Below, in pieces: positions 28,066 to 28,433 of a stretch of DNA of 64,000 bases. The stretch covers positions 282,658,001-282,722,000 of the forward strand of contig OZ024742.1 in assembly GCA_964016885.1 (NCBI GenBank), in the 5' to 3' direction. Origin of the DNA: Eledone cirrhosa (lineage: Eukaryota). The position numbers and the translations under genes were made by a program. Positions within the stretch are counted from its first letter, which is position 1, and the number at the start of each line of letters is the position of its first letter. The notes under the pieces were generated by a model. That model was not told the origin of the DNA. It saw nothing but the letters and a program-made list of their open reading frames with translations, and made no database searches.

Positions 28066-28433
28066 TAAAATAAAGTTAAATAAAAGTCAAATGATTAAAA
28101 TTTAGCTTCGTTTATTACTGGAGTCATCCCCAGTGAATTAACAACCCAACAAGGAACTGGGCATATCAGAGTATTGACAATATCATACACCTAAACAACA
28201 TATGTACTTGTCTATACCATACTAATTCAAACTGCCTGAAGAGGTCACAGCCAAAGATGGCTGTCACTGAAATATATATAGCAGTAATAAACGAAGCTAA
28301 ATTTTAATCATTTGACTTTTATTTAACTTTATTTTACACTACTCCGGAGTAACCAAACCAACCTGCGCACTTCGTCGAGTGCTCCAGCCTGCATACTGAG
28401 GTGTTGGTATACAACCAACATAAACTCAAAATC
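28066..28433 (+). mobile_element. (TA)n-flanked cassette: inverted 3' tail, body, hammerhead, AATAAA, tail
   Basis: 55-bp arms 28066-28120 / 28282-28336 with no mismatch seen. Confidence 0.85.
28231..28285 (+). ncRNA. Minimal type-I hammerhead ribozyme motif
   Basis: ACTGC-CTGAAGA-GGTCACAGCCA-AAGA-TGGCTGTCACT-GAAA-TATATA-TA-GCAGT then AATAAA. Confidence 0.82.

What the first reader, a model, noticed from the sequence alone, without database searches (positions are those of the whole stretch)
28066..28433. Cleanest model cassette: inverted tail, body, intact hammerhead with ATATATAT helix III, AATAAA
Seen: 55-bp arms with no mismatch, intact core, 5-bp stem I and 11-bp stem II with one mismatch. 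Helix III is itself an (AT)4 palindrome, the same sequence as the flanking microsatellite. The inverted 5' arm begins at 28282, within about 1 nt of the predicted cleavage site (after 28280). Established: palindromic helix III permits dimeric hammerhead folding. Inference: this is a young copy, and the inversion breakpoint may be linked to the cleavage site or to stem I microhomology.
Basis: partly seen in the sequence, partly recalled or inferred. Interest (0 to 1): 0.72.

Follow-up and report, generated by a model that had tools for sequence, protein, structure and literature searches.

The report
Solo Penelope end with hammerhead ribozyme
This is one of thousands of short, young, mirror-image copies of the end of a Penelope-type jumping gene carrying a predicted self-cutting RNA motif; most copies run straight through the predicted cut and stop at what is likely the RNA's capped start, so the cut site does not set the inversion point, although a small minority of copies do begin exactly there.

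Summary
The sequence description is right: 55-bp perfect arms, an intact type I hammerhead, (AT)4 helix III, AATAAA. It is a head-to-head solo pseudo-LTR (pLTR) insertion of a young Hydra-clade Penelope-like retrotransposon in (TA)n. An intact 892-aa master (L392) carries the same 307 bases with no difference; 4127 arms match a 24-mer exactly. The inversion point was misplaced: it lies at 28127/28128, because 28117-28127 is itself an inverted piece of the parent; 28282 is a 155-nt jump inside the inverted arm at a 4-nt microhomology. Across the family, arms have two fixed 3' ends (+55, +152 from the cut) and 37 of 100 unselected arms start 155-172 nt upstream of the cut, at a likely capped start (extra G). 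Junctions at the cut are no more frequent than at three control positions, but 11 of 23 very short two-arm insertions have both arms ending there, a likely trace of occasional cleavage (about 1% of arms). The architecture, ribozyme type and target are published (Craig 2021; Cervera 2014; Frangieh 2024), and this scan has reported them before for other families in this genome. No RNA data were available.

The parts
28034..28067 (.). (TA)17 left target flank (after a (CA)46 run); last TA shared with the arm
28066..28120 (-). Inverted short arm: parent +55 back to +1 (0 = first base after the predicted cut); +55 is one of the family's two fixed 3' ends
28117..28127 (-). Inverted piece of parent -155..-165, joined to the short arm through the 4-nt overlap 28117-28120; stops 2 nt short of the family's 5' hot spot (-167)
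28127..28128 (.). True head-to-head inversion junction (T28127 fits either side)
   Evidence: same junction region in L002, L004
28127..28336 (+). Forward pLTR, parent -154..+55
   Evidence: 307/307 identical to L392 5683-5989 together with the tail
28231..28285 (+). Type I hammerhead motif, predicted cut after 28280; helix III ATATATAT 28272-28279
28286..28291 (+). AATAAA; no sign of use as a poly(A) signal in genomic copies (no A tails, no ends at +20..+40 except one of 125)
28337..28433 (+). 97-nt tail (+56..+152), which in tandem copies is the 5' UTR leading to the ORF start at +207; second fixed 3' end
28434..28454 (.). (TA)n right target flank; first TAT also matches the parent

Best explanation
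This is a young head-to-head insertion of the terminal repeat (pLTR plus tail) of a Hydra-clade Penelope-like retrotransposon, likely made when the element's endonuclease cut a (TA)n tract and both DNA ends primed reverse transcription on one short capped RNA at two fixed start sites. Shown: identity to an intact RT/GIY-YIG master, (TA)n target, two fixed 3' ends (+55 and +152), one of each in most two-arm insertions, arms of one insertion sharing variants, a sharp 5' stop at A-167. Inferred: -167 is the transcription start (TCA context, extra G); the template of this copy was uncut at the hammerhead, since the forward arm reads through it; the short-arm cDNA stopped near +1 and re-annealed by four bases to the 11 nt of RNA left upstream of the long cDNA (or those 155 nt were deleted after insertion); the ends were then joined. 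The hammerhead would cut only slowly, probably as a dimer or with protein help, and leaves about 1% of arms that start at the cut.
For: Master L392: 892-aa ORF, 3' pLTR and tail 307/307 identical to 28127-28433, inverted 210-nt arm identical; predicted fold closest to telomerase RT (E 1.2e-9); RWK, DKT, YRDD, CxCx5C, GIY-YIG-like, CxxC, CxH motifs, no CCHH as defined for Hydra (PMC8557442). Of 125 arm ends, 65 at +51..+60 and 58 at +150..+154, nearly all followed by (TA)n. 77 two-arm loci: arms agree at 793 of 821 subfamily-diagnostic calls against 30% disagreement in random pairs; L261/L262 arms share 11 A>G changes on the RNA strand. 561 arms start exactly at A-167; preceding base T55/G32/A13 in the 100 listed; 9 of 16 G's in held loci are not explained by the partner arm. 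Two internal RT start sites and uncut templates were shown in vitro for an anole element (PMC11167929).
Against: No RNA evidence at all. None of 14 ORF-bearing copies starts at -167: 7 start at +9..+212 and 7 run at least 230 nt upstream, so long copies come from another, more-than-unit template. Shared variants are equally expected if one arm was copied from the other cDNA. The window copy's jump leaves at +1, one base from the cut, which a cut template could also explain. Pfam does not recognise the master protein itself; no tree was built for the clade call.
Confidence: 0.75

Rival explanations
1. Cut-template model: the short arm was copied from an RNA already cut by the hammerhead, ran off at G28281, lost one base and jumped by microhomology; cleavage sets the junction in this copy.
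For: The arm ends at +1; 11 of 23 very short two-arm loci have both arms within -1..+3 with one at 0 or -1, several as blunt joins (p about 2e-6 for 11 of 18 against a uniform spread over +5..-10, post hoc).
Against: The forward arm of the same insertion reads through the site, and arms of one insertion nearly always share a template type. Arm-internal jumps leave from many positions (+126, +117, +5, +1, -87, -139). Junction counts at 0 equal those at controls. The junction base is +1, not 0, and a 4-nt overlap explains it.
Confidence: 0.2
2. Fold-back and nuclease resolution: one cDNA primed at +152 folds back or is copied into the second arm, and the endonuclease cuts the intermediate at +55; the 28282 junction is a later deletion in a 220-bp palindrome.
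For: Explains identical arms and near-symmetric inner ends; Craig et al. ascribe the tail to endonuclease resolution (PMC8557442); L004 shows the undeleted layout with the same -165/-154 junction bases.
Against: Single +55 arms without a partner are common; either arm can be the longer one; in vitro the two ends of an anole element are RT start sites (PMC11167929).
Confidence: 0.2
3. Non-autonomous retrozyme: the 300-nt unit is an independent circular-RNA element.
For: Short, abundant, non-coding, type I hammerhead with palindromic helix III, as described for animal retrozymes (10.64898/2026.07.22.740005, part 1 of 5 read).
Against: It is letter for letter the end of a coding element; no head-to-tail arrays of the short unit or circular permutations were seen among the loci held; the short copies have a fixed 5' start, not a circular junction.
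Confidence: 0.04

Closest known systems
Hydra clade of C-terminal-endonuclease Penelope-like elements (Craig et al. 2021, PMC8557442; passages and supplement file 1 part 2 read), including Hydra-1_Obim
   Same: RWK and DKT motifs, CxCx5C linker, CxxC and CxH in the nuclease, no CCHH, canonical type I hammerhead near the 3' end, (TA)n target, inverted 5'-truncated copy and one-sided tail.
   Different: Unit of about 4.13 kb against under 3 kb, with two long low-confidence inserts (residues 480-618, 696-747) and a 1.1-kb 3' UTR; tail 97 nt against 30-40; hammerhead sequence unlike the listed Hydra-1_oBim motif; helix III is a loop-less 8-nt palindrome where most listed Hydra motifs have 9-10 nt with a 1-3 nt loop.
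Anole Poseidon element PAc (Frangieh et al. 2024, PMC11167929; parts 1-2 of 4 read)
   Same: Two fixed ends bounding a tail, AT-rich target, hammerhead upstream of the start sites, copies that read through the cut site.
   Different: Other clade; there the ORF starts inside the ribozyme, here 207 nt after the cut; no reads at the cut site were found there, whereas here a small class of genomic copies starts at it.
Metazoan PLE hammerheads with short palindromic helix III (Cervera and de la Pena 2014, PMC4209133; parts 1-2 of 4 read)
   Same: Type I core, long helix II, 5-bp helix I, palindromic helix III, mostly single truncated motifs, pairs on opposite strands 100-700 bp apart, low activity expected.
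   Different: Here helix III is (AT)4, the same repeat as the target; the young subfamily has G-U instead of G-C at 10.1-11.1.
L1 twin priming and cap-derived 5' G (twin priming recalled from memory; untemplated G from PMC9341517 passages)
   Same: Both target ends priming on one RNA; in this copy the inverted -165..-155 piece abuts the forward arm without overlap; extra G before full-length starts.
   Different: L1 primes on a poly(A) tail and the inverted part does not duplicate the 3' end; here both arms usually copy the same stretch from two internal start sites.

Membership tests
Penelope-like elements (EN+) | Single ORF with telomerase-like RT | tested here: met
   892- and 891-aa ORFs; best fold matches are TERT structures; Pfam misses the query but hits homologue P0024 above cut-off
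Penelope-like elements (EN+) | C-terminal GIY-YIG endonuclease | tested here: met
   Motif at 771-788; atlas neighbours carry PF01541 in 26-50% of members; no direct Pfam hit, domain not folded-searched alone
Penelope-like elements (EN+) | pLTRs, partial tandems, inverted 5' copy, one-sided tail | tested here: met
Hydra clade | RWK and DKT motifs | tested here: met
   residues 35-39 and 120-122
Hydra clade | CxCx5C linker, CxxC and CxH, no CCHH | tested here: met
   residues 752, 850, 878; CCHH pattern absent
Hydra clade | (TA)n insertion and canonical hammerhead | tested here: met
Hydra clade | Placement in the RT tree with described Hydra families | not tested
   reference Hydra proteins were not extracted; call rests on motifs
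Hydra clade | Generally under 3 kb | tested here: not met
   unit 4125-4139 nt; a tendency in the paper, not a strict criterion
Type I hammerhead ribozyme | Conserved core and three helices | tested here: met
   core intact in 70 of 80 unselected arms; three diverged relatives keep core or stems with one compensatory stem II pair; Rfam models do not score it
Type I hammerhead ribozyme | Self-cleavage | not testable with these tools
   indirect only: short copies starting at the cut
Non-LTR retrozyme | Non-coding tandem units, each with a hammerhead | tested here: not met
   identical to the end of a coding element; no short-unit arrays in loci held
Naiad/Chlamys | N-terminal endonuclease, no canonical hammerhead | tested here: not met

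The most novel reading that the evidence does not exclude
The copies of this one family record three RNA states of a Penelope cycle: a capped uncut transcript starting at -167 (the abundant solo pLTRs, with cap-derived G), a ribozyme-cut linear RNA starting at 0 (the rare tiny copies), and a re-ligated 4.1-kb circle made by two hammerheads pairing through (AU)4 (the long, more-than-unit copies that ignore the -167 stop), each copied from both target strands on a single RNA molecule.
Probability: 0.25. Interest if true: 0.65.

Novelty: new member of a known kind. Interest (0 to 1): 0.3.

Why it matters
As a locus it is ordinary. As a family it offers an intact, apparently recently active Hydra-clade element with thousands of near-identical copies, which maps the two copying start sites, a likely promoter start and a small cut-site class to the nucleotide. 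That makes two open questions directly testable with one construct: whether Penelope hammerheads cut in vivo (no in vivo evidence in PMC4209133; no reads at the site in PMC11167929) and how the inverted, one-tailed insertions arise.

Tried and rejected
Rfam: no ribozyme hit. Other copies or other hammerheads in the window: none by blastn or descriptor. RNA: no RNA holder listed, so no reads were laid; this says nothing on expression. PDB sequence searches, NCBIfam and Pfam on the master gave no useful hit. Idea that many copies share this copy's junction: of 60 loci looked at from 116 matches with a non-G at position 0, most are point changes and none repeats the -158/+1 join. Idea that (AT)4 helix III is a junction hot spot through homology with the target: about 19 arms estimated genome-wide over nine positions, against 561 at the single base -167. 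Idea that the -167 hot spot is mere ATAT microhomology: a second CATATG near -82 and helix III are not hot spots in the 100-arm sample. AATAAA as poly(A) signal: no A tails. Idea that one pLTR is shared by unrelated ORFs: the upstream sequence is one parent. The control script labelled position -45 as -41; that shifted only the scoring reference and rows were checked by eye. Controls were not normalised for the number of arms each pattern can match.

Full report
Observation. The 55-nt arms (28066-28120, 28282-28336) are perfectly complementary. The hammerhead is as described, with the predicted cut after 28280, an 11-position stem II with one C-C mismatch and ATATATAT between GAA and the cut. 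It is the only such motif and the only copy in the window. The 71-nt region folds better than 198 of 200 shuffles; Rfam does not score it. Closing helix III within one molecule costs 3.4-4.5 kcal/mol, whereas two (AU)4 strands pair at -3.2 kcal/mol, which fits, but does not prove, the dimer route described for metazoan motifs (PMC4209133, parts 1-2 read). Positions below are counted from the first base after the cut (0 = 28281).

What it is. The genome (3.0 Gb, microsatellite-rich; probably a cephalopod, inferred only from two named homologues) has 1666 exact matches to a 21-mer of the body and 4127 to a 24-mer after the cut. Longer copies lead upstream into one parent. L392 holds an intact 892-aa ORF whose 3' repeat and tail are identical to 28127-28433 at 307 of 307 bases; L393 holds an 891-aa ORF. 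The predicted structure (mean pLDDT 78) matches telomerase RT best. The motifs RWK, DKT, YRDD, CxCx5C, a C-terminal GIY-YIG-like stretch, CxxC and CxH without CCHH are those that define the Hydra clade, which also targets (TA)n and has canonical hammerheads (PMC8557442, passages and supplement part 2). No tree was built. In tandem copies the tail runs on into the 5' UTR and an ATG at +207; the unit is 4125-4139 nt.

The 3' ends are fixed. Of 125 arm ends in the first loci, 65 fall at +51..+60 and 58 at +150..+154, nearly all joined to (TA)n; the unselected sample has 52 short and 48 long arms. This is the tail signature that Frangieh et al. traced to two internal RT start sites (PMC11167929, parts 1-2 read). 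The window copy has one arm of each kind.

The inversion point was misread. The parent reads ATGACTCCAGT at -165..-155, and 28117-28127 is its reverse complement. So the inverted arm is +55..+1 followed by -155..-165, joined through four shared bases, and the true head-to-head junction is 28127/28128. L002 and L004 have junctions in the same few bases with an undeleted inverted arm. The inverted piece abuts the start of the forward arm with no overlap, which suits a jump onto the only RNA not yet copied; a later deletion in the palindrome cannot be excluded.

Are breakpoints tied to the cut? In the first 100 arms on contig C1 (all 100 examined), 5' ends fall at -172..-155 in 37, upstream of that in 36, at -154..-13 in 23, at -12..-1 in 2 and at 0..+6 in 2, both from one locus. 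Genome-wide probes needing two non-matching bases before the position gave 14 junctions at 0 (56 of 60 matches examined) against 14 of 24, 16 of 23 and 16 of 23 flagged at +5, -22 and -45, 13-14 after checking by eye: no general excess. However, among all 23 two-arm loci with at most 30 nt between the +5 positions, 11 have both arms ending within -1..+3 with one at 0 or -1, several as blunt joins; no neighbouring position has more than about two (p about 2e-6 for 11 of 18 within +5..-10, post hoc). A further 14 of 30 examined (of 40) arms join (TA)n inside helix III, where the exact end is masked. Together this is about 1% of arms. I read it as a trace of occasional cleavage; an RT stop at the ribozyme fold is the alternative.

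The dominant 5' stop looks like a capped start. 561 arms begin exactly at A-167 with a non-parental base before it; in the 100 listed that base is T 55, G 32, A 13 (my count). In held loci 9 of 16 G's are not supplied by the partner arm, including single G's between two arms that both reach -167 and after a (TA)n run. An untemplated G is associated with copying an mRNA cap in L1 (PMC9341517, passages), and Penelope has its start site inside the pLTR (PMC8557442). Against a simple picture, none of 14 ORF-bearing copies starts at -167; seven start at +9 to +212 and seven run at least 230 nt further upstream, so long copies use more-than-unit templates (tandem read-through or circles).

One template per insertion. 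In 77 two-arm loci sharing at least 100 nt (not a random set), the arms agree at 793 of 821 subfamily-diagnostic calls, against 30% disagreement for random pairs. Both arms of L261/L262 carry the same 11 A>G changes on the RNA strand, as expected if one edited RNA was copied twice or one cDNA was copied into the other.

Age and selection. The window arm equals the family majority over -154..+55; mean arm-to-arm divergence is 1.5%; 70 of 80 unselected arms keep the core. Three diverged relatives keep the stems, with one compensatory pair, and the (TA)4 helix III; two keep the core, one has it damaged.

Comparison and verdict. Inverted 5' copies, one-sided tails, (TA)n targeting and palindromic helix III are all published. 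Searches for papers joining Penelope hammerheads with octopus, twin priming, or genomic copies at the cleavage site listed nothing that reports cut-site copies or a cap-derived G for these elements; I saw only listings for most hits. New member of a known kind; interest 0.3.

Noticed in passing
L261/L262 (G000:C2:330905625-330905937) and L289: A>G hyper-changed copies on the RNA strand; in L261/L262 both arms carry the same 11 changes, which also break the hammerhead core.
   Followed up: partly
L271, L213, L340, L309 at parent position -168: Single extra G before arms that start at A-167, suggesting copying of an RNA cap.
   Followed up: partly
L381, L385 (5' ends +11, +9); L384, L387, L391 (more than 1 kb upstream of the pLTR): ORF-bearing copies start close to the cut or run well past one unit; none of 14 starts at -167.
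   Followed up: partly
L392:1919-4594: Intact 892-aa protein has two long low-confidence inserts (480-618, 696-747) absent from about 700-aa homologues; its 3' end and 3' UTR hold a diverged 100-nt direct repeat.
   Followed up: no
L080:1885-1945, L294:1434-1497, L298:1432-1497: Diverged sister-family hammerheads with changed loop II, a compensatory stem II pair and the same (TA)4 helix III.
   Followed up: partly
parent -167..-113 (window 28127-28168 holds the 3' part): Predicted long RNA hairpin right at the 5' hot spot; several second arms start near -125.
   Followed up: no
L217: A short-arm end and (TA)n are joined straight into helix III of another copy, as if an insertion used the ribozyme's (TA)4 as target.
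   Followed up: no
L051:2230-3507, L033, L060, L026, L059, L083, L086: Fragments of other retroelement ORFs next to copies of this family (RVT_1 hits for L051 and L033).
   Followed up: no
window 27434-27470 and 27670-27692: Diverged inverted ends (71% over 128 nt with 79-202 of L001 in a nearby pair) of short repeats flanking the locus; likely unrelated MITE/SINE-like repeats.
   Followed up: no
window 36749-37875 and 60395-63443: Long (CACT)n array and a 3-kb GGT-rich satellite.
   Followed up: no
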